The notes beneath the pieces were generated by a model, which searched no databases, had not been told where the DNA came from, and saw only the letters and a program-made list of their open reading frames with translations. Of a DNA stretch of 64,000 nt, positions 7,720-57,249 are shown in pieces; position 1 is the stretch's first letter, and each line of letters starts with the position of its first letter. The DNA is from Hydrolagus colliei (taxonomy: Eukaryota). The stretch lies in NCBI GenBank assembly GCA_035084275.1, contig CM068743.1:18166001-18230000 (forward strand), in the 5' to 3' direction. A program made the position numbers and the translations under genes.

Positions 7720-9554
7720 AGCCACCCCAACCATCTCATGGCTCACTCCGCAGCAATCAGCTATGAAAGACAAACACTTTTTCTCCCTCTCCTCACCCAT
7801 ACCTGTTCTAACTCTCCTGGCTCCTCAAACTCAATGATCACCTTTCCCCCATGACCCAAATCCTCTCTATAGCACTCTCCCCATCATGGCCTCCCACCAG
7901 CAAACCTATCCACATTTTCCTCCAAAATGTGCCCTCCCTCTCCAACAAAGCCTTTTCTATCCATGACCTTATCTTGCTTGAGCATATTGATATTCTCGGG
8001 CTTACAGAAACTTGGATCTCTCCCGGTAACCCCATCCCCTTGTTGAAGCCTCCCCTCTGGCTACACTTTCCACCACACACTCCACCCAACCCAACATGGT
8101 AGCTGGTTGACCCTCATCTCCCAAGCTTCCCTCGGTCTATCTCCCTATTCCTCTGGCTGATTCCCATCTTCTGAGTACCTCACTCTTTACCATCTGTCCT
8201 CCTCTCTCCCTCAAAATCCTCCTAGTTTACTGCCACCACTAACCCCCTCCCCTCCAACAATCCGCTGACTCCTTCCTCATCGATATCTGCTCTCTCCTCT
8301 CATCCCTGTCCCTCTGCACTGAAAACCTGCTCACAATGGATCATTTTAAACTCCACTTAAACTCCCTTTACACCACCTCCTCGGATCTTCACCTCAAAAA
8401 TTTAAAAGATCCTCTTGGCTGCATTGTCCTCCCCCGCCCACATGTCCCCTTCCACCCAAACCATCCAGACTGCCTTCTCCCTCCACCACAGCTCCTACAA
8501 CTCTCCCCCACTTACACTCCTTTGTCCAATTTCTCCACCCTCCCCTTAACCACAATCAATGGGATGAAGTTCAATACTTGCTACCTCAACCCCCTCCCCA
8601 CCCAGCTGCTGGTCACTCAACTCACGTTTCACTCCCCCTGCTAGCTGACACAGTCAACCATTTTCTCTCTTGTCAGGCTCTGTTCCACTCCTGAAAATCA
8701 CTGTCATCACATCCCTCCTCAAATAACCTCGATCCTTCTAATCTCTCACACTGCCATCTCATCTCCAATCTCCCCTTCCTTGCCAAAGTCCTAGAATGCA
8801 ATGTTGCAAGTCAACTTCGGTCACATCTTTCCCTCCACTCCCTTCTCGAGCCCTCCATTCTGGTTTTTGCCCTGACCACAGCACAGAGGCAGCGCTTGTC
8901 AAAATCACAAACGGCATTCTTTCTATTTGTGACCAGGGCTCCCTCTGCCTCCTCGCCCTCCTAGATCTTTTTACCGCACTCAACACAGTTGACCACTACA
9001 TCCCCATCTATCGGCTCTCCTGTTCCATCTACCTCAGTGGGACCTCATTTGCATGGTTTGAGTCCTACTTAACTAAGCATCTCAATTTCATCTCAGTAAA
9101 TGGTTTATGCTCCTGCCACTGCAACATTCACCTGGGCTCTATCCTTGGCTTTCTGCTTTTCTTTATCTATATGCTCCTTGAGGGGGATATCAACTCCAAA
9201 CACGGGATAAACTTCCCCATGTATGTGGATGACACACAAGTCTACCTTGCCTCCTCCAGTACCAACTCCAGGTCCGCCGCTGTTCTATCCTCTTGTTTGA
9301 CTGTACCTTATCTCAAATGCAACCTCATTCATGTGTTTATCACCTCCCACCTAGATTACCCTAATGCACTGCTCTCTGGTCTCCCCAGCTCCACAATTCA
9401 ACAGATCCAGCTGATTCAAAACTCTGCCACCTGGACCAAACTCCGTACCCACATCCTACCAGCTCTAGCCAGGCTCCACTGGCTCCCCATCATCAAATAG
9501 GTCACTTTCAAGGTCCTCACACTCATGTTCAAATCCATTCACTCCTGTCACTCC
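7720..9554 (+). mobile_element. Decayed L2 LINE ORF2 (AP endonuclease plus reverse transcriptase, with internal deletions)
   Basis: ORF 7851 has LQNVPSL and DILGLTETW (APE motifs). ORF 8796 has HSGF..HSTEAAL, LLDLFTALNTVDH and MYVDDTQ (RT motifs). Frameshifts and stops throughout. Confidence 0.9.
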
Positions 9555-9855
9555 AGTCCTGTAGCTCAGTGGTTAGAACCCTCACCTTGCAAGCGACAGA
9601 CCTGGGTTTGATTCCCAGCAAGGTGAAATCTTGGCAAATTTGCTTAATCCACACTCCTGGTAAAAATAATCCCTAAAAAAAGATGCATTGGTTATTTCAA
9701 TCCACGACTGTTTGTGGGACATTGCTGTGTGCAATTCGTTGCCACGTTTCACCCACAAAATATACAACCAATTCACCTTACTGTATATTCTGTAAAGAGC
9801 TTTGAGATGTCTAGAAGACCTGAAAAGCACTGTATCAAATGAAAGGATTATTATT
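9555..9855 (+). mobile_element. tRNA-derived SINE, short form
   Basis: AGTCCTGTAGCTCAGTGGTTAG head through AAGGATTATTATT tail, colinear with the 6716 copy. Confidence 0.9.
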
Positions 9856-9879
9856 AGTGGTAGTACTACTATTACATAC

Positions 9880-11085
9880 CCTCCACCCTATCTCTTCCCC
9901 CATCTTCTCTGCTCTCCTCCGTAAAATGAAACCCACTACCTGCTCCCTTGACCCCATCCCCACCTCCCTCCTCATCTCCCAGCTCCATCTCCTAGCACCT
10001 CCTTCTAACTGATATCATCAACCTCTCCATATGCACCGGCACCATCCCCACTCCTCTAAAATCTGCTGTCATCGCCCCCATCTTAAAAAAAACCTTCTCT
10101 TGACCCATCCCTACCTCCCATTCCTCTCCAAGATCCTGGAAAGAATTCTCGCTTCCCAGTTTCGCTCCTACCTCTCCCACCATTCACTCCTCAAACCCCT
10201 TCAATCTGGCTTCCATGGTGCCCAAAGCACCGAGATAGCGCTGGTCAAAGTCTCTAATGACATTCTCAACATTTGTGACTAGGGCTCCCTCTGCCTCCTT
10301 GTCCTTCTCGACCTCTCAGCCTCCTACGACACTGTTGATCAATCCATCCTCCCACACCGCTTCTCCTCCTTCCTCAATCTCTGCGGACCTGCCCTTGCCT
10401 GGTTCGACTCCTACCTCTCTCATCGCCTACCAACGCTTTCTCATCCGGCACCTGCACGCTTTGTCACGCTTTGTCGCCACCAACGCTTTCTCATCCGGCA
10501 CCTGCACTGTCACCTGTGGCGTCCCCCAGGCCTCTGTCCTTGGCCCCCTACTTTCCAACATCTGTATGCTCCCACTTGGTGACATCATCCGCAGAAATGG
10601 GGTTAACTTCCACATGCATACGGATGACACACAACTCTATGTCTCTGCCTCATCCCTTGACTCCAGGACTACCACTGTCCTGACAGACTGTTTGTCAGAC
10701 ATCATCCTGGATGAGAGCTAACTTTCTACAGTTGAATGTCAACAAGACCTAGACCCTACTGATTGGCTCGTGCCAGCGCCTTCTTGCATCAAGCGCTGGC
10801 TGCATCAACGTTCATGTTTGCATACTCAACTTCACTAAGCCAACTCTTCAGCCACTCTGCCCCCAATCTCTGGAACTCTATCCCAAAGTCCCTCCGCCTC
10901 ACCCCCTCCCTAGCCTCCTTCAAGTCTCACCTCAAGACTTTCCTCTTTGATGGACCCATCGGCAACTCCTTCCCCCGCCTCCCCTGTCCTCAGCTCGGGT
11001 CTGAATCAATAACTGTCCAGTGCCTTGGGACGTCCTCCTGATGTGAAAGGCGCTATACAAATGTAATTTTGTTGTTGTTGTTGTA
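9880..11085 (+). mobile_element. L2 LINE (RT region to 3' end, internally deleted)
   Basis: [26 protein letters not shown] and HTDDTQLY motifs. Ends GTGCCTTGGGACGTCCTCCTGATGTGAAAGGCGCTATACAAATGTAATTTT(GTT)n. Confidence 0.9.
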
Positions 11086-30250: not shown

Positions 30251-33200
30251 ATATTGTAACTTACTTTTTTCTTCCAACTTTCTCAATGCTTATAGTGTAA
30301 CTGCTTGACTCCCTCCCATGGCCACAAAACTATGTGGCTCATAATGACTAACGGTCCTTTTGCACAAGGGAGAGTTTTGAGAGTAGAGCACATGCTTAGT
30401 TAGGTCCAACTAAAATGTTATGTTTCATAAACCGTTAGCTTACTCTAACCTCTTTGGAAGGCATGTATTCCAAAGTGTTTTTATAGTGGCTTTTTAGAAT
30501 GTATATAGCCCTTTTTAAACATAGTGTGGTTTCAGTGCAGTCAGTCACATCAGTCACTGTGGTTATGCACAGTCGGGTAGAATAGAAAATGTGACAGTCA
30601 GTCTATTGTACCACACACTGTGAACAAGGCAGAATCAAGAAGGGTGAGGGTAGCTATGTATAGTGTCAGATGACTGAGTTGGCAGACTTACAGAACAACA
30701 GACTTTACAGAAGATTACTGTACATTCGATCTTTAAAATAAGGCAAGGTTTTTATTTTAGTTTTAAACGTCAGCAGGAAAAACAGTATACGTGTGTTTAC
30801 ACTGTTAATTCTTCTAACTTGCCAGGATAGCTCGCTTCCACATTTTTGTTGGGAAAGTTAGTGAAAGAGTGCACTGAACTATTGAACTCAAGAGTGAAAA
30901 ATATCTCTGTGAGCCCTCAATGTACCGAGTGCGATGGCAAATTAATACAGGACTGTTCGGCATAACATCAGTAGACACTTTTTACTCTTTTTCTGCTTTA
31001 TCATTGTAGATTCTCTCATGTAAGATTTGATTGGAGTCTACACCACAGCAAGTTTCTGAAAATGGCTCACGGCTTTCATTTGTGTTTGAAATTCCACAAA
31101 TGGCCTCTGCTCAAACACCTGTTCTGAAGTGGTCTTTGGGTTGTTGAACATAGCTCTATAGGCAATCTAGGTCTCATGTTATAGATACATGTGATAGTAA
31201 CATCACAAGAGCAATAGCATTTGTTACTTATCTTCAAATGGAAATATGATAGTTGCTGTTCTAAAATATATTTCAGTTGCTAAAGCAATGAACAAATGTT
31301 ATTTCCTTTCTTGTGTTTGTTCCCTGCTTTTAATAAGGTTGAGTGTTTAAGGCAGAACTGGACTTGGTCTTCTAAGTTTGCATGTAATCCAAAGTCAAAG
31401 CACAGTACAGTGCTGTATATAAATAAAAAGAGTAGTCAATTTGCATTGGAAAGACAAAAATGCTTGGGAATTGAAATACGTTTCAGAGTCCTGGCTCAGT
31501 TGCCTCCTTCACTGAAAAATGCTGGTGATCAGCTTCAGTGACCACACTGGGAGATAAAAGTTTTCATCGCAGAAGGAAACCACATTTTCCTGTCTCTGTT
31601 CTTAAATTACTCTTTTTATTAATCCCACTTTCGAGTTTTTCCTCTGTCCCTTAATGATTTAACTTCTCGTTTGCTTTACCTTTATTGATCCAGTCTCAAC
31701 AGCCACTGGTGGTAATAAATTCCATACCCTAACTTTACTTGCTTTTTTGTGAGCTACATTTAGCTCTCTGAATGGAATCACCTTTTGATAGGCAGAACAT
31801 AGCAATTACATGCAAACTTAAAGCGTGAAAATAGCTATTGTCTTAACAATACTCTTGATGCACCGCTGATTTAAAATCAAGGGACTGAAATGATTCTGTC
31901 TGTTCTGGTACATCAGAATAATGAATGACAGAACCTTCCAGGGCAAGGCAACTATTCTGGGATAATTATCTGTCATTTCTGGCCAACTGAGAGAACAGAA
32001 CAGAGCAGAGTTATTTTACTGTGGCACATTAAACAGTTGGGAGGGGATTTCTGAGGCACATCGAGCAGATAAAAGCAAGAGGAGGCAAGTGGGGGAAAAA
32101 AAAGACCTGTCAATTAGAAAAAGCAGCAAGCACTATAAGTACCAATCAATGCCATCTGGATGCTTGAGGCATAGAGCCACTCTCTGAAGTTGCACCCTTC
32201 ACCATATAAAACAAAATTCCTGCGTTGGGAGCTTTTAATACAGCTGGCAATATCCCTGAGGAGAAATGACAAGTGCTTCATGATTGCAGGAGTGTCAAAG
32301 TCCTTAAGTTAAGGGGATTCTCATTTAAGTTTGATTAAAATTTAAAAGCATATGGTGCGTCATAAAATGGTAAACTGTTAAGTATAGAATTCATCACATA
32401 TGCGCTGCTGGTACAAATGTTGTGTCCATGGTACACAGAAACACAATCTCTATTTAATCACTTTCCATCACTTTTCTACCGGAGTCCGGTTTCAAATAGT
32501 CTATGGGGGAAATGCAGTATCTGATGTGAAAATTACGCGTTAAAGTGTTAAAGTGTATCCTTACGAGGAACGTTATTCATAGAATCATAGTATCTTACGG
32601 CACAGAAGGAGGCCATTCGGCCCATCAAGTCTGTGCCGGCTCTAGCAATTTAATCTCACTCCCCAGCTCTCTCCCCATAACCTCGCAAATCCGTCCTCCC
32701 CAAATAAATGTCTACCTCTCTTTTAAAAAAGTTGTTATCAAATCGGCCTCCACCGCCTTTTCAGGCAATGCATTCCAGATTCGAATAACTCACTGGGTGA
32801 AAAAAATTCTCCTAATTTCCCCTCTGCTTCTTTTTGAAACTATTTTAAATCTGTGACCACGAGTCACTGATACGCCCATCAGTGGAAACAGTTTTTCCCT
32901 ATCTACTCTGTCGAATCCCTCATGATCTTGAAAACCTCTATTAGGTCTCCTCGCAACCTTCTTTGTTCCAATGAGAATAAACCTAGCCTTTCTAGCCTTT
33001 CCTCATAACTGAAGTCCCTCATTCCCGGTACCATCCTAGTAAATCTCCTCTGCATCCTTTCCAATGCCTTAACATCCTTCCTAAAGTGTGGTGACCAGAA
33101 TTGTACACAGTACTCTAGCTGAGCCCTAACCAAAGTTTTATAGAGTTCAGTCAGAACATCCTGACTACTCAAGTACTCTATGCTCCTATTTATAAAGCCT

Positions 33201-33320
33201 AGTATCCTGTATGCTTTTTCGATAGCCTTGTCTACCTGTCCTGCCACCTTCAAAGAATCACTCACACAAACTTCCAGGTCTCTCTGTTCCTTCACACCCC
33301 TTAAAATTGCACTACCAAGC

Positions 33321-35979
33321 CAGGGCCGTACGCAGGATTTTTTTTGGGGGGGTGCGAATTGCTAGTGATGGGACCAACAATGGCCGGGGGCTTGCGGGCT
33401 GCCCCCGAAGCCCCCTCGAGGCTCCGACGTTTTACACAGTTTGAGGTCTTATTTAATCGGTTCAGAAGATCCAATATGAATGGTAAATGTTTCATGCCCT
33501 TGGTGTTTAAGAGCATCATTATTTATTCAGTGTTTTTATTTTCCCCGGTAGTCCGTGTCTAAATTTTTTGGGAAGGTCGAATGTGTTCGCCGATAAAAGC
33601 CAACACGATTGTTGACTCGATGATGTACGGAATGTGAACGATAAAGTAAATTACAATCCAATTAAAACAGTACAATGACGAATGCTTGATAAATGTATGC
33701 GTATAAGAGAAAATGATCATAAACTACAGATTGACAGTAATTAATAAGTTGTTCTGCATTGTTATCCTAAGATTCAATTTCTTTCGGACTGTAATGAACA
33801 ATAATGTAATAATCACTGCGGATTATATCATGGCCAATGATTGTGATGATATGGTTCTGTATTCTAGGTGAGGTATATTTAGAATTCCTATTTGCGAGCC
33901 CAATACTAGCAAGGTGATGTCGAAGAACCTCGTCATGCTTCGCAATCATCTGTAGGGCTGCCAGAAAGTTTCCTGGATTACCATTGTATTGTGTGACGTC
34001 ACTCGTAACGGTGTTACTTTCCACGACTCTTTCATTATCTCCTCTAAGTGCAATGCACTGACGTCCACAGAATAATACAGTTTCGGCAACTGTTCTTATG
34101 ATATGTCGATTTCTTTCAATGTTTTTCTTCTTTTCATCGACCAAACGAATGTCTATCTTATGTTGTGGGTTCGCAACAGAGTCGCGCATTGATGCCGATC
34201 TAATCATTGAATTTACGTGATAACCATTTCGTTCATGTTCCTTCGCCTTCTCGTTTAGTTTGTAAAACATGGTAAAGGGTGTATTAACAAATGCCCCCAT
34301 CCGTTTCCTCTCACTTGTTTGGACCATCAGTGCACAGTGAATGCAAAAGGCAGCATCTAATGAAGGACTGTAGACCATCCATTTATAATCTCGCAAGTAT
34401 CTCATCTTGAACTGGCGCTGACAATGGTGAAGGAACCGTGACGGGAAAATGTAATCTTCAGATGGGATGGAGTGGCTTGTCAAGAGATGGTATTTATATG
34501 CAACATCAAGTTTTTCAATTGCATTGGTCAACTCCTCAGGGCTCAGAGTAGCATTTATGATGTTTCCGATATCATTAACGAAATGAGTAGACCTATGTTG
34601 TATAATTATAAGGGGCTCGGCAACTTCAGCAGAATGCTGGACACTTATGCAAACCTTGACCAGGAGATTAGGTGACTCATGAGGTATATACCAGGCTTCT
34701 AAGAGACGCCCTGAACGTTTACTGGCGACAGCATCTGACAAATAGTGAGCTATATGGTACACTACCACACTGGTATCACAGACATAGGTTTAGCGGACAT
34801 AGCTGGAGAAGCCGGGAGGAAACTGTCCATAGTCCATAGTCCTATGGGAACCATTGCACTGTCACAGAACACGAGGTAGACCGACCCTAACCTACATTGA
34901 TACTCTGGAGCGCGATTCGGGTATTGGCAGACGGGAGTTGTCAGGCTGCATGGAGAGAAGGGATCAGTGGAGAAGTGTGGTTGTCAATGCCCGAGTTCGC
35001 TCGATCAGATGATGATGAAACTATTTTTAGGCCAAATTCGTGCGACATTGATGTTTTTTTCACTCTGGGTACAAAATTGAATGTGAAATAAAGTAGCACT
35101 GTTTATCTTTGCGGTCATATTTTTTTGCATGCCAGTGGACGTCTCTAAAAGCAATTTTTAATTACAGGAATACATTTTTAATAATATAAATCAAACGTGA
35201 TAATCAAGACAAAACAAGAAACATGATATTTCAGAAACACGCCTATCAAAACGTAAGTCATTTTTACTTACATTTATCAGATTAAAATACGATTTCAGCT
35301 TCCACAAAGTGGTGCTACCTTTTAATGTAGTGACTGTATACGGGATGATTTCCAATTGACACACCACATAGAATAGGCGCTAAAGCATAGGCCTACGTCC
35401 ATGAGTATTTTTTTTAAAGATAGGCATTCCCGTCCAGACACATATAACTTTTTTGTTGGGTTCTCAAAAGCTTTAATTTCTCAGAAGATTGTAAATATGT
35501 TGTCATTGTTTGCTAGCATTACAGTCACACCTCTCAAAACTGGAGCAATTTTTACTTACGGTGATCAGATGAAAAGATGATTTTAACTTCCAGAAGTGGT
35601 GCTGTCCCTTGTGGCTGTATGCGGGATGATTTCCAAACGAGGATTTGAGTCTTCGCGCACGCCTATGTTTATCCAGTCACGAGTCACAGACTCGCCGCGT
35701 CATTGACTCCTCTATCGACGCGGTATGTTTTGGGTAGACGCCGACTCTGGTGCGCGACTCGATAATTTTATATTAATACTAAAACATTCAAAGATGTGTG
35801 TTTATAATTTATACATAGTTTTGAAGAACTGATTGTTACACAAATGCTCAATAAATTTACTTTACTTGGTATTTAAATTTGATAAAAAAAATACAATTCT
35901 CTAACTCGGAAAATGTGGACCTTTTATAATTTGGGGGGGTGCGTACGCACCCGTCGCACCCCCCCTGCGTACGGGCCTG
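33321..35979 (-). mobile_element. hAT-superfamily DNA transposon, internally deleted, with 5-bp TSD (hAT5-like)
   Basis: Left TIR CAGGGCCGTACGCAGG (33321-33336) and right TIR CCTGCGTACGGGCCTG (35964-35979) match at 15/16. Flanked by CAAGC (33316-33320 and 35980-35984). Contains a transposase ORF. Confidence 0.93.
33767..34768 (-). pseudogene. Truncated hAT transposase: TTF-type zinc finger plus DUF4371 (ZMYM1/THAP12-like); catalytic DDE and C-terminal dimerisation domains missing
   Basis: Motifs WMVYSPSLDAAFCIHC..EH..H, VLFCGRQCIALRGDNE, NPGNF and KYTSPRIQN.II. Similarity stops before the expected first catalytic D. The ORF-track start is GTG, not a real start. Confidence 0.88.
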
Positions 35980-36727
35980 CAAGCCTATATTGCCTCCCCT
36001 CATTTCTCCTCCCAAAATGCATCACCTCACATTTCTCTACATTAAACTTCATCTGCCATGTGTCTGCCTATTTTACCATTCGGTCTATATCTTTTTGCAG
36101 ATGACTACTATCCTCCTCACTATTCACTATTTTTCCTAACTTTGTGTCATCTGCAAACTTCAAAATGGTACTCCCTATACCCAAGTCCAGATCATTAATA
36201 TAAATTAAAAAGAGCAGTTGTCCCAATACACTGGGGGACACCACTGTACATTTCCCTCCGGTCAGAAAAGCAGCCGTTCACCACAACTCTCTGCTTTCTG
36301 TTTCCCAGCCAGTTCTGGATCCATGCTGCCACTGTCCCTTTTACTCCGTAGGCCTTTATTTTCTTTATAAGCCTTTCATGTGGCACTTTGTCAAATGCCT
36401 TTTGAAAGTCCATAAAAACTACATCAACTGCACTGCCCTCATCCACCCATTCCGTTACCTCATCAAAAAATTCTATCAGATTTGTCAGGCAAGATTTGTT
36501 TTTAGCAAATCCGTGCTGGCTGTCCTTTATTAATCTATATCTTTCTAAGTGAAGATCTATCTTGTCCTTGATTATAGTCTCTAGAAGTTTCTTTCTTGTA
36601 CAGGGGAGTAACGTTAGCAATCTTCCTGTCATCTGGCAACAACCCTGTGTCCAAGGAAGATTGAAAGATACTCTCTGCCGTGCCTGCATTGACTCAACCC
36701 TGTTTAACCAGACACTGCACTACAGTT

Positions 36728-43224: not shown

Positions 43225-44240
43225 AAAACAACCAAAAAATTACATTTGTCGTGTGCCTTTCACATCGGGAGGACGTCCCAAGGTGCTGGACAGTTGGGGT
43301 TTGGGACACGAGCAGGTGGGGTGGGGGGCGCGCAGTGTTGGAATGAGAGAGAGTGCAGGGAGGTAGGAGGGCGACTGAAGGCACGGTGAAGAGGAGGGTC
43401 GAGACCGGCCTTGAAGGAGTCAAGGGAGGGAGCAAGGCGAAGGAGTTGTGGGATGGAGTTCTGAAGTGTAGGAGAGGTGAAGGCCCGACCGCTGATGGTA
43501 GGGCAGGTTAGGCGGGAGACATGGAGCAGGCCGGAGCCTGCTGAACGGAGGGAGTGGACAGATTGATAGGGTGGTCAGCAGGTCAGAGCGGTAGGAGGGG
43601 GCAAGGCCTTGGAGGAACTTGAAAGTGAGGACAAGGATGCTTAATTCGATTCTCTGAGGAATGGGGAGCCAGTGGAGTTGGGCGAGGGTGGAGGTGATGG
43701 AGTTGCGGAGCTTGTTGCGGAAGAGGGCACGAGCTGCAGAGTTTTGGATGACCTGCAGCTTGTGGATGGAGGAGTTGGGGATGCTGACAAGGAGGGAGTT
43801 CCTGTAGTCAAGTCTAGAGGTGAAAAATGTATGTGTGACGGTTTTAGCAGCCTGAGGGTGAGGCAGTGACAGAGATGGGCGATGTTACCGAGGTGGTGCA
43901 AGGCAGTGCTGGTCATGGCACAGATATGGAGGAGAAAGGACAGCTCAGGGTCAAACAAGACCCTCAGGTTCCTGACTGGCTTGGTTAGGTGGAGTGTGCA
44001 TCCATGGATGCTGATGCTGCCAGTGCCTGAGGTGTGGAGGCGCTGGCGCAAGCCAATCAGGAGGGCCTCAGGAGGGCCTCAGATGCTGATGTTCAGCTAT
44101 AGAAATTTGTCTCTCATCCAGGACTTGATGTCTGACAGGCAAGGAAGAGCGAAGCTGATAAGCAACGACTCTTTCAAGGACCTTAGAAAGAAAAGGTAGG
44201 TTGGAGATGAGCTGGTAATTGGAGAGCAATGTGTCTACGT
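43225..44240 (-). mobile_element. L2 LINE (3' end plus ORF2 pieces, internally deleted)
   Basis: Tail (CAA)..ATTACATTTG..CCTTTCACATCGGGAGGACGTCCCAAGG; ORF 43641 has VRNLRVLFDPELSF. Confidence 0.9.
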
Positions 44241-52795: not shown

Positions 52796-53094
52796 GTACG
52801 TGGGTCCCGGAAAGGATGCATTTACTTCAATTCACAACCTTCCAAATCTACGGAAAACATGGTACAGTATTTGTGTATGAACCAATCAATACCCAGTCAT
52901 TACTATTTTTCTGGGGTCAGGCAGCTCTGGATCATTCCAAATCACCAACATCTTTTAAACTACACAATGCTTCTCCAACTCTGGTGTGGCTGTTTCTCAT
53001 AATTGAAGACAGAGGAATGATAAAGGTCATGAGACTTGAAATTCAGAACAATTAGGCTGATCTTTTCAACCGCACATTCGGTCACTTTCTTCCC

Positions 53095-54410
53095 CCTCCC
53101 AGCCAGGAGGGGGAAGAAAGTGACCGAAAGCGCGCTTGAAAAGAAAGGTCTTTAGCCGAGACCTGAAAGTAGGAATAGAGGGGGTGAGGCGAAAGGAGTG
53201 AGGAAGGGAATTCCAGAGCCTCGGTGACTGAAGTGACTGAAGGCATGGCCGCTGATGGTGGAGTGGAGGTTTGGGAGACAAGGAGGAGGTGAGACTCGGT
53301 GGAGCGAAGGCAATGGGTACTGTTGTAAGGAGAGAGGAGGTCAGAGAGGTAGGGGTTGCAGAGGAGTGGAGGGATTTCAACAAAAGAGTGAGGAACTTTA
53401 AATCGATCCTCTCTGGGAAAGAGCCAGTGCAGTCTGACGAGTGCATTTGTATAATCCAGCCAAGAGGTGACAAAGGCATGGATCAGGGTTTTGGTGGCTT
53501 TTGGGGTGAGACATTGGCGAGATGGGCAATGAGTCGGAGATGGAAGAAAGCAGTGTTGGTGGGGAACCGGATGTGGGGGAGGAAGGATAATTCTGGGTCA
53601 AACCTGATGCCTAGCTTGCGTATGGATTCGGAGAGTTTTAGAGACAGGTTGGATAGGTAGAGGAGGTGACAACTGTGCGATTGAAGACACTGACGAGAGC
53701 CAAAGTGTATGCCTTCCATCTTGTCAACATTTAGCTGAAATTTATGCTCATCGAGCTCCTGATGTCTGACAGGCAGGCAGACAGAACATCAGGGGACTGG
53801 AGGGATCGCAAAGTGAGGTGGAAAAATAGAGATAGGTGTTATCCGCATACATGTGGAAGTGTACACCATGTCTGCGGATGACAGCCCCAAGAGAGATCAT
53901 ATAGATTAGGAAGAGGAGGGGCCCAAGAGTGGATCCTTGGGGTACTCCACAGGTAACCGGGTGAGAATGGGAGGAAAAGCCGTTTGTGGAGATGTACTGC
54001 TGGTGGTTTGTGAGGTAGGATGGGAACCAGGTGAGTGCGGTCCCACTGAGGTGGATGACGGAGGACAGGCGGTGATGGAAGATGGAGTGTTCAACTGTGT
54101 CGAAAGCGGTGGAGAGGTCCAACAACAACAGCAACAACAACAAATTACACTTATAAAGCGCCTTTCACGTCGGGAGGACGTCCCAAGGTCCAGGAGGACA
54201 AGGAGGCAGAGGGAGCCCTGGATACAGATAGACAGGATGTCATTTGTGACTTTCACAAGCGCAGTCTCTGTACTGTGGGCAGGGCGGAAACTGAACTGAA
54301 GGGGTTTGAAGAGAGGGTGGGAGGAGAGGTGTGCGTGGAGTTGATTGGCAACAACGCTTTCTAGGACTTTGTCAATGAAGGGAAGTTTGAAATAGGGCGG
54401 TAATGGCTGT
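53095..54410 (-). mobile_element. L2 LINE (RT to 3' end) with nested 64-bp L2 tail
   Basis: HSTETALVKV, LDLSTAFDTVEH, CGVPQGSTLGP, MYADNT and LGIRFDPELSF motifs across frameshifted ORFs. Confidence 0.92.
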
Positions 54411-54494
54411 AATGTTCTTTTCACAAATTAAAAAAGAATGCAAGTTACAAAGAACATCAAGTATGGTAATATACATATTTACATCAAACATCAT

Positions 54495-54597
54495 CGCCCA
54501 CAAAATATACAGTCAATTTACTTTACAGTACATTCTGTGACACGCTTTGAGATGTCTCGAAGATATAAGGCGCTATATCAAATACAAGGATTATTAT
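54495..54597 (+). mobile_element. SINE 3' fragment
   Basis: CGCCCACAAAATATACAGTCAATT..GGCGCTATATCAAATACAAGGATTATT. Confidence 0.85.
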
Positions 54598-55369
54598 CAG
54601 TACAAGGAACAACATTTTAATTAAGAATGTTATAATTTGTAGCTTGTAATCTTGCCTATTTTGAAAATCAAATCAAAGAATTGGAGCATGCACATCAACA
54701 GAAAGAGGAAAGTGAAGTCAGATGAAAGTGTGTATAGTACTTGCCATCTGCTGCAGCCCATGTGATACAAGCAACTTGGCAACTTATCTTTAACTTTATG
54801 TGTGCATTACAAGCCAACATGTATGGCTGACTCACGACGGGAAGGCTCACACCTGGGATTTAGCGTAATGTTGAACAACTCTGATAAAAGCAGGAAGATG
54901 CATTTCACAGTACGAGGGAAGTATTGCGTGGGTAGTGTCCTCCAAGCACACCTGTTGGAAGAGGCAGGTAAACTACATAAAGTGGATCAGTTTGGATTTG
55001 TCCACAGCAAAATTGTGATTCATTAAAATTATCCTTTCTCAAATCCACCAATTTAAGGTAGTCACTGAATACAATGTGGACAATAATCTTCAGTACAACA
55101 GCTTCACTGTAGAATTCACTAGGAAAAAAAACAAAAAAGTGCATGTTGCACATTTTCAAATGTAATTCTGTATGGGTTGGGTAAGATGAATCTCCCAGGA
55201 ATAGATGGGGATTCCTATATTCCTAAATATAACTCTGAAAAACATATGGATGAAAGAATCAGGGAAGCGAGAAATTAAGTGGTACAGCAGTTTTAGAACA
55301 CAGTCCTTTCACTCTGATACCTGTATTTGAATATGATGCATACTGGATGGAGAGGGTTGAATGTTTTAT

Positions 55370-55785
55370 TTCATTACAAGCTTGCAACCTCACCCTTGTA
55401 TTCAAATCCCTCCACTCCTCTGCACCTCCCTACCTTTCCGACCTCCTCTCTCCGACCTCCTCTCTCCTCAAACCAGCACCCATTGCCTTCGCTCCACCGG
55501 GTCTGGCCTCCTCCTTGTCCCCTATATCCTCCGCTATGCCATTGGCAGCTGTGCCTTCAGCCACTACGCCACAAGGCTCTGGAACTCCCTTCCTCACTCC
55601 CTTCACCTCACCCTCTCTCTTGCCAGTTTCAGGTCTCAGCTAAACACGTTTCTCATCGACCGGGCCTTTGGTCACCTTTGTACCCCTGCCCCTGGCTCGG
55701 TCCCGGGATCCGTTATTGTGAAGCGCTCTGAGACGTCATCTGGCGTGGAGGCCGTTATATAAATTGAAATTGTTCTTGTCGTTTA
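55370..55785 (+). mobile_element. L2 3' fragment
   Basis: AFS..A.RLWNSLP..L..F.S.L.TFL C-terminus in ORF 55361; tail GAAGCGCTCTGAGACGTC. Confidence 0.85.
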
Positions 55786-57249
55786 GGAATTCTAAATGAA
55801 TTTATCTTGGGGATTCTGAATTCAGATCCCAAAGATCAGAATTCATCATTATTAAATAATTGCATATTATAAATTTAAGACAGGGCAACTCTTGCAATCC
55901 ACTTACCTGACTCCTCCAAGTTTCCGCAAGATTCCTTCAATAGATCTACCTCTAGATCAAATCATGGAATCTTTTTGATTGACAAGAATGTATCCAATTC
56001 CTTTTTGAAACGTTGTAGTTTCTTGTTCTACCATCCTGTATGAGTAGTTTGTTCATTGTCTTCTATTGCCGAAATAAGAAGTGCGGGACCACAAAAAATA
56101 AATCTATTAACCGTCCCTGGGGAAAGATCACTCGCTGACCAATAACATTTATCACAAAACCAAAAGATTGGTTCATCAAATTTGCTCTCATCCTTCCAGA
56201 ATATCCATCCTATTGTCTTCCCATTACTGCATTCAACTGTTTTTTTAAAATGAATCCAGCATCCCTGCCTCCACTACCTTTCCTGGCAACCAGTCAGCAA
56301 TTACTCTGATTGGGTAAAGAAATACTTCCCGATGTTTGTATGGATTTGTCCTTTACAATATTATCCCCGTGTCCTCTTATGCTTATAGTCTTGGTGCATC
56401 CAGAAGTAATTGAGCTTAATCTGCATCTACGATATACAGTAAAAGGCCGTTTATCAAATGCAAGGATTATTATTATCATACACTAATACCTCACCATGAG
56501 TGATACATTTTGGGTTCCAATCATGTTCCCTCCTGCAGCACTGATATAATGAAGCTTTTTTCTTTGTTGGAGTGAAGCACAACATTGAAAATAAGTTTGT
56601 TTCACTGGTTTCTTTTGCTTGACATCATTTAGCATTCTGACACTTGGAAAGGTTACCTTTATTTATTATCTTCTTAGCTTATAGTTACCACATTCAATTT
56701 AGAAAAATACAATTAAAACAAGTTGAATACTGCATTTCAATTGTGATGACTTTACTTCAAGCTGGTGAGAAGCATATATTTTGCTTTGCACTGCAGAAAG
56801 ATTAGGTTTGATTATAAAAATGATAATGCAAAAACAATAAGAGGTGTCAAAGTTCAAGCCTTTGCTTAAAAAAAACTTTCCATTATTACTCTTTCAGTCC
56901 AACTACTTTTTGGTCTTAAGCCTCTGCCAGAACAACTCTTGAATAGGCTGCTAAGTGATAGCAAGTTAATTTATCATTTGGTTTTCTTTCTCCTCATCTC
57001 TGCTTAGTGCCCGTCTTGCAGCTCAGTTGAAATCATGGCAATCTTATATTTCAATGCGCTATGGATCTATGCGTTCATACATCAATGCTCTGTAATAACC
57101 ACCCATTCTCTTCAATCATTTCCAGTCACTGCTTCTTCCTCCAACACTTTGAGGTTTAACTTTCTACAGTTCTCCATTGTTTATGACCAGGCCCTGGTCA
57201 ATTCATCAAGAACCATGTCCATATTTTCTGCCCTAAACTTGTTTTCACA

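What the first reader, a model, noticed from the sequence alone, without database searches (positions are those of the whole stretch)
33321..35979. hAT-type transposon with a 5-bp (not 8-bp) TSD, confirmed by restoration of the host CR1 reading frame
Seen: 16-bp TIRs (CAG...CTG, one mismatch) flanked by CAAGC on both sides. Deleting the element plus one CAAGC gives the uninterrupted minus-strand CR1 peptide KCEVMHFGRRNEGRQYRLGSAILRGVKEQRDL. No 8-bp duplication fits. The apparent repeat is CAAGCC, but its sixth base is the first TIR base. Known: canonical hATs make 8-bp TSDs, and 5-bp TSDs define the rarer hAT5 group, described mainly from invertebrates. Inference: this is a hAT5-like family active in this vertebrate after the CR1 inserted, possibly uncatalogued.
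Basis: partly seen in the sequence, partly recalled or inferred. Interest (0 to 1): 0.7.

Follow-up and report, generated by a model that had tools for sequence, protein, structure and literature searches.

The report
Imported hAT5-type transposon with stowaway retroelement
This is a real, broken copy of a young cut-and-paste jumping gene that duplicates 5 bases on insertion, a trait already known for one hAT subgroup; the family likely entered this vertebrate from a marine invertebrate, and it carries a scrap of a retroelement whose parent was not found in the host.

Summary
Confirmed. The 2,659-bp element has 16-bp TIRs and a 5-bp TSD. In 53 of 71 scored genomic copies the TSD is exactly 5 bp, and in none is it 8. 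Sister CR1 copies show one 5-mer at the empty site (23 of 24). The window copy is a dead deletion derivative of a ~4.87-kb master with an ~845-aa Hermes-fold hAT transposase; two intact frames survive. The 5-bp TSD is not a vertebrate novelty: relatives at 30-38% identity with near-identical ends also show it (11 of 19), and hAT5 is already reported in fish. hAT5 membership by phylogeny against Repbase references and catalogue status could not be tested. A sequence look-up of this scan's earlier notes found no match. Verdict: new member of a known kind, moderate interest.

The parts
33316..33320 (.). Left copy of the 5-bp target site duplication (CAAGC)
33321..33336 (.). Left TIR (3' end relative to the transposase), begins CAGG
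   Evidence: I7; copies
33346..33356 (+). Subterminal G7-TGCG motif, also at 35933-35943 (direct) and 35955-35965 (inverted); likely transposase-binding sites (inferred)
   Evidence: (D14, I21)
33337..33809 (.). 3' non-coding arm, equal to the first ~489 bp of the master; ends at the breakpoint of a ~1.8-kb deletion that removed the catalytic and dimerisation regions
33811..34627 (-). Transposase remnant, about residues 65-330 of ~845: zinc finger and start of DUF4371; no start codon and no catalytic residue
34628..35017 (+). 3' remnant of an RTE-type LINE carried in the master's 5' non-coding region, antisense to the transposase, ending in a (GAT)n tail; clipped at its 5' side in this copy
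35018..35026 (.). Downstream copy of the LINE's own 9-bp TSD (the upstream copy is present in full-length masters and deleted here)
35238..35636 (+). Imperfect internal direct repeat (spacing ~281-288 bp) in the 5' arm; further duplicated in some masters
   Evidence: (D1, D3)
35964..35979 (.). Right TIR (5' end relative to the transposase), ends CCTG
   Evidence: I7
35980..35984 (.). Right copy of the 5-bp TSD (CAAGC)
32903..33315 (-). Host CR1-type LINE ORF2, part downstream of the insertion (limits approximate)
35985..36634 (-). Host CR1-type LINE ORF2 with reverse transcriptase domain, part upstream of the insertion (limits approximate)
   Evidence: (RVT_1, E 9e-15)

Best explanation
The element is a dead, internally deleted copy of a young ~4.87-kb hAT DNA transposon family that makes 5-bp target duplications, likely belongs to the hAT5 group, and likely reached this vertebrate by horizontal transfer from a marine invertebrate. 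Shown: full-length copies encode an ~845-aa transposase with a zinc finger, DUF4371, D348/D413/E785, CxxH, W509 and the hAT dimerisation domain; several deletion subfamilies (2.25 kb, 2.66 kb, 4.0-4.6 kb) keep both ends and multiplied; this copy sits in a CR1 that had already mutated. Inferred from hAT biology: transposase from full-length copies bound the TIRs and subterminal motifs, cut this copy out through flank hairpins and joined its ends to target DNA at two phosphates 5 bp apart, with occasional slips to 4, 6 or 7; the deletion forms would have arisen during repair of excision gaps and were moved in trans. Inferred: the LINE remnant entered the master before the burst, probably in an earlier host.
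For: TSD: 53 of 71 copies at 5 bp, none at 8; empty site 5 bp in 23 of 24 CR1 paralogues. hAT identity: DUF4371 E 4e-18 and Dimer_Tnp_hAT E 1e-8; AlphaFold model, pLDDT 79.7, whose 11 listed Foldseek hits at E under 1e-6 are all Hermes, with no Transib or RAG among the listed rows. Lineage trait: 11 of 19 related metagenome loci with family-like TIR pairs have 5-bp TSDs, 1 has 6, 1 has 8, 6 have none; they fall with the host element in one 98-supported branch. Transfer: host has RAG2; 78-83% identity to G. aegis proteins and 83% to an unnamed ENA protein, 65% to Hydra, 41-50% to teleost proteins; nested among invertebrates; a single vertebrate clade rejected, p-AU 2.7e-5; CpG observed/expected 0.94 and 0.81 against 0.32 for the rest of the window. 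Young burst: 3.2% mean pairwise distance, pN/pS 0.71 and 32 in-frame stops over 23 long copies. Passenger: 9-bp TSD and tail in 5 of 5 full-length copies; 88% identical to an unnamed LINE protein; its upstream part has no match, or only 24-34% matches, in the host, while its 3' part is found readily.
Against: No reference hAT5 sequence was available, so membership rests on TSD and lineage, not on a tree with Repbase elements. All relatives with a measurable TSD come from one set of records (WLWD contigs) at 30-38% identity; none of the close relatives (snail, Hydra, teleosts) had a measurable TSD. No host-gene control for the vertebrate-snail distance was computed, and no snail DNA was seen. 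The AU group was named after the tree was seen, and paralogous lineages also break a vertebrate clade. High CpG also follows from youth alone. Three other organism labels hold copies at mostly 95-99%, so the invasion may predate their split. Only 117 of 2,427 candidates were scored in the LINE search and 35 loci were inspected. The copies scored were top hits, not a random sample.
Confidence: 0.78

Rival explanations
1. The family is a hAT5-type lineage inherited vertically in this vertebrate line, with a recent reactivation; similarity to the snail reflects purifying selection on successive active elements.
For: pN/pS is below 1 (0.71). Teleost relatives exist in the same wider lineage. Other organism labels hold the element. 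Transposase proteins of related fishes may be poorly sampled in the database.
Against: Tree distance to the snail proteins is about 0.2 changes per site while teleost relatives lie in other branches. Copies form one shallow burst. [quoted passage not shown]
Confidence: 0.12
2. The 5-bp TSD arose independently in this family from an 8-bp Tip100- or Blackjack-type ancestor, so it works like hAT5 but is not hAT5.
For: No direct comparison with hAT5 references was possible. One related locus has an 8-bp TSD (L196).
Against: 5-bp TSDs occur in six separate related families at 30-38% identity with very similar ends; L196 belongs to a family whose other copies show 5 bp. The nearest named relatives include Hydra and Nematostella proteins, and a Hydra element is classed as hAT5 (PMC9004415, table passage).
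Confidence: 0.08
3. The passenger LINE inserted into the master inside this host lineage, from a LINE family that has since decayed or was missed by the search.
For: Most candidates were not scored (117 of 2,427). LINE copies are mostly 3' fragments, which the many hAT-borne copies could crowd out.
Against: All 117 scored matches begin at or after the passenger's truncation point. The reverse-transcriptase part finds only 24-34% matches with 95 of 95 candidates scored. All 35 loci inspected are hAT-borne.
Confidence: 0.3

Closest known systems
hAT5 group (Kapitonov and Jurka 2007, Repbase Reports 7:1188; seen only as cited in PMC12730594 and described in PMC9004415)
   Same: hAT transposase with a 5-bp TSD; aquatic animals; relatives in Hydra, Nematostella and fish.
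   Different: No difference shown. New here are this family, its likely transfer, its passenger LINE and the measured TSD spread of 4-7 bp.
Hermes (Ac-type hAT; PDB 4D1Q, 8SJD, 8EDG)
   Same: Best fold match; DDE triad, CxxH, conserved Trp, C-terminal dimerisation domain, CAG-starting ends.
   Different: 13-15% identity; 8-bp TSD in canonical hATs; DUF4371-type N-terminal region here.
Gigantopelta aegis proteins XP_041374266.1 and XP_041364202.1 (named 'ZMYM1-like' and '52 kDa repressor-like')
   Same: 78-83% identical; one branch with the host element (SH-aLRT 99-100).
   Different: Mollusc; annotated as host genes; ends, TSD and passenger could not be seen.
Transib and RAG1/2
   Same: 5-bp, sometimes 4-bp, TSD (PMC1131882, passage).
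   Different: CAG rather than CAC ends; no Transib or RAG chain among the listed fold matches; the shared TSD length is best read as convergence.

Membership tests
hAT superfamily | C-terminal hAT dimerisation domain | tested here: met
   PF05699 at 35-36 bits, cut-off 21.4, in both intact frames
hAT superfamily | RNase H-like DDE core with large helical insertion, CxxH and Trp (Hermes fold) | tested here: met
   Motifs located; top Foldseek hits are Hermes
hAT superfamily | Short TIRs beginning (C/T)AG, with subterminal repeats | tested here: met
   third base G as in PMC1131882 passage
canonical hAT (Ac, Buster, Tip100) | 8-bp TSD | tested here: not met
   0 of 71 copies
hAT5 | 5-bp TSD as the family norm | tested here: met
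   53 of 71 copies; 11 of 19 related loci
hAT5 | Transposase groups with Repbase hAT5 elements inside the Blackjack-containing animal lineage | not testable with these tools
   No labelled hAT5 sequence; the supplement of PMC12730594 had no hit for hAT5, hAT6, Blackjack or Tip100; its tree figure is not held
hAT6 | 6-bp TSD | tested here: not met
   2 of 71 copies
Transib | CAC termini and RAG1-like transposase | tested here: not met
   Ends are CAG; fold matches Hermes
Non-LTR retrotransposon insertion (passenger) | 5' truncation, simple-repeat tail, variable-length TSD, reverse transcriptase in the parent | tested here: met
RTE / RTE-X clade (passenger) | Placement of the reverse transcriptase with RTE-clade references | not tested
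   The clade name is recalled from the C-terminal motifs and the tail; only RVT_1 and a weak DUF6451 hit were obtained

The most novel reading that the evidence does not exclude
A hAT5 transposon crossed from a marine invertebrate lineage shared with a deep-sea vent snail into this vertebrate, bringing a LINE scrap that retrotransposed into it in the former host. The scrap is a postmark that can name the donor, and the surviving intact transposase frames make it possible to test how a Hermes-fold enzyme reaches the 5-bp stagger of RAG and Transib.
Probability: 0.5. Interest if true: 0.58.

Novelty: new member of a known kind. Interest (0 to 1): 0.42.

Why it matters
The 5-bp TSD by itself is known. 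The family matters modestly for three reasons. It is a candidate invertebrate-to-vertebrate transfer, whereas the large survey I read covered transfers among vertebrates and found 93.7% in ray-finned fishes (PMC7070016). A hitch-hiking LINE remnant with no parent found in the host offers a way to trace the donor. And two intact ~845-aa frames of a 5-bp hAT make the structural basis of TSD length testable; no solved relative was found by sequence.

Tried and rejected
Frame restoration as proof of 5 bp: does not separate 5 from 6 and only partly from 2 or 8. 6-bp TSD: rejected by copy tallies. Contamination: rejected, as copies lie on contigs of up to 156 Mb and this one is inside a host CR1. 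Viral carrier: 116 pattern matches in viral contigs, none a relative. PDB sequence search with the alignment: no hit. No RNA holder listed. Run X14 has no cover over the passenger region, but no contig joins across it, so it is not used. Whether this exact insertion is present or absent in related organisms stays open. A first motif filter for metagenome ends missed the main TIR type and was replaced; chance TIR pairs without the family motif were not counted. 'hAT5_DR' in PMC3517528 is a zebrafish Buster-family name, not the hAT5 group. Ten paper searches listed no description of this family, of hAT5 in cartilaginous fishes, or of a snail-vertebrate hAT transfer; Repbase Reports and subscription papers were not searchable.

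Full report
1. Observation. The sequence shows CAAGC at 33316-33320, a 2,659-bp element at 33321-35979 with 16-nt TIRs differing at one base, and CAAGC at 35980-35984. Scanning shifted boundaries gave duplications of 3-6 bases and none of 8. Removing the element and five bases gives the quoted CR1 peptide, but removing 2 or 8 also keeps the frame (8 adds a stop), and the 6-bp reading gives the same empty site. The frame test is therefore supportive, not decisive.

2. Copies decide the TSD length. A DNA search of the own genome gave 43 matches from 40 scored of 1,666 candidates, the full-length ones 95-97% identical. I examined ends in loci. Dropped before the count: one duplicate (L007), five copies with damaged ends, and 23 loci where one end failed the alignment threshold or lay outside the fetched stretch (among them L016 with 5 bp and L017 with 4 bp). 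Of 71 left, 53 have an exact 5-bp TSD, 2 have 4, 2 have 6, 2 have 7, none has 8, and 12 have none (4 of these are one mismatch from 5); shuffled flanks give 0.8 on average, at most 6 in 2,000. Target preference is weak and palindromic: over 53 sites counted on both strands, A at TSD position 2 and T at position 4 in 52 of 106, with T and A favoured three and four bases outside (46 and 45 of 106). In 24 sister CR1 copies, 23 have exactly five bases at this site and none reads CAAGC. The changed base appears in both TSD copies, so the CR1 mutated first and the transposon then duplicated the changed 5-mer.

3. Anatomy. A protein search found 137 matches, several in frames of 850-870 aa. L051 and L052 hold uninterrupted frames of 846 and 845 aa from the first Met, with DUF4371 and Dimer_Tnp_hAT, a C155/C158/H191/H197 zinc-finger motif, D348, D413, C441xxH444, W509 and E785. 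The model (pLDDT 79.7, pTM 0.62) matches Hermes structures first (E 4e-8 to 7e-7). The longest ordinary form is 4.87-4.92 kb (L072, L081, L089). The window type lacks about 1.8 kb with all three catalytic residues and about 0.4 kb with the start codon; all 30 loci share these breakpoints. A 2.25-kb type is also abundant, and others of 3.9-4.6 kb occur. Over 23 long copies the coding region differs by 3.2% on average, with pN/pS 0.71 and 32 in-frame stops: a shallow burst followed by decay.

4. The passenger. The 5' arm of the master holds about 470 bp encoding the C-terminus of a LINE protein, antisense to the transposase, with a (GAT)n tail and a 9-bp duplication on both sides in 5 of 5 full-length copies. 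Its one database match is an unnamed protein, 88% identical over 85 residues, whose cluster carries RVT_1; 'RTE-type' is my recalled label. In the host, the 94 residues upstream of the truncation found nothing, the reverse-transcriptase part found only 24-34% matches with 95 of 95 candidates scored, and the longer protein gave 117 matches, all starting at residue 193 or later (117 of 2,427 scored). The 35 of these I inspected lie inside the hAT. Shared stops show the remnant had decayed before the burst. The parent LINE was not found with these queries; that is not proof of absence.

5. Relatives. The host is a jawed vertebrate (RAG2); a cartilaginous fish is my guess from genome size, LINE content and RAG2 scoring similarly against the solved RAG2 chains (their species recalled). 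The closest proteins are an unnamed ENA record (83%) and two G. aegis proteins (78-83%), then Hydra and Diadema (65%), then corals, sponges, amphioxus and teleosts (mostly 41-63%). Quick maximum-likelihood trees of 46 and 69 rows, rooted at the midpoint for drawing only, place the host with the snail (SH-aLRT 99-100) inside a branch with Diadema, Hydra, corals and Nematostella; teleost proteins fall elsewhere. A tree forcing host and three teleosts together is rejected (p-AU 2.7e-5), with the group named after the tree was seen. CpG observed/expected is 0.94 in this copy and 0.32 in the rest of the window. Public contigs of three other organism labels carry the family, passenger included, mostly at 95-99%, and a fifth label carries a more diverged form; names are coded, so their kinship is unknown.

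6. Is 5 bp special here? No. Among 80 metagenome loci, 19 had a family-like TIR pair around the transposase: 11 with 5-bp TSDs, 1 with 6, 1 with 8, 6 with none. Those with TSDs come from one record set, represent six families at 30-38% identity, have ends very like the host's, and share a 98-supported branch with it. In print: hAT5 and hAT6 are defined by TSD length and lie in a lineage with Blackjack (PMC12730594, passages; supplement searched without hits); hAT5 was found in invertebrates and fish (PMC9004415, passages), black carp (PMC12512617, passages) and Hydra (PMC12220107, passage). The defining Repbase report was not seen. PMC6004678, PMC7895826 and the EDTA v2 preprint (passage searches) added nothing; the preprint's supplements were not seen.

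7. Mechanism. Shown: end structure, TSD spread, catalytic motifs, fold, deletion subfamilies, order of insertion. Inferred from Hermes-type biology (established knowledge; hairpin chemistry as in PMC1131882, passage): end binding, excision through flank hairpins and strand transfer, here 5 bp apart; movement of deleted copies in trans. Why the stagger is 5 rather than 8 was not tested; tighter target bending or a changed dimer geometry is the likely cause, and the 4-7 spread suggests a flexible register.

8. Verdict. Real feature, correctly seen. It works like hAT5 and is probably a member; membership by phylogeny is untested. Horizontal origin is likely (about 0.8), a foreign origin of the passenger is more likely than not (about 0.65). 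New member of a known kind; interest 0.42.

Noticed in passing
L056, L081 (7 bp); L088, L149 (6 bp); L017, L024, L089 (4 bp); L196 (8 bp); L228 (6 bp): Exact TSDs of other lengths occur at about 8% of scored host copies and in relatives, so the stagger varies around 5.
   Followed up: partly
L089:953-5827: A contig of run X12 joins across the whole element with 4 letters fitting on either side: an empty site matching that copy's 4-bp TSD (the flank may itself be a repeat).
   Followed up: partly
L139-L158: An abundant 2.25-kb deletion subfamily whose junction overlaps by about 14 bases in the BLAST mapping, suggesting microhomology-guided deletion.
   Followed up: partly
G000:C3:104.1-104.85 Mb and C111; G000:C36:2.9-4.6 Mb; L006/L007: Clusters of near-identical copies with shared lesions or flanks, pointing to segmental or tandem duplication after insertion.
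   Followed up: no
L131-L138; G000:C6:81.49-81.52 Mb: A LINE-like frame of 1,058 aa repeated on several small contigs, and reverse-transcriptase matches in tandem at about 3.28-kb spacing on C6.
   Followed up: no
L089 laid with run X14: A fifth organism label holds a more diverged relative with both ends at very high depth and AT-rich flanks, suggesting many short non-autonomous copies there.
   Followed up: partly
window 8700-10700, 43400-44100, 53000-55800: Decayed LINE fragments that resemble L2-type ORF2 (label recalled) fill much of the window.
   Followed up: no
L160, L184, L185, L216: Other TIR-bounded elements surround or adjoin the related transposons in the WLWD contigs.
   Followed up: no
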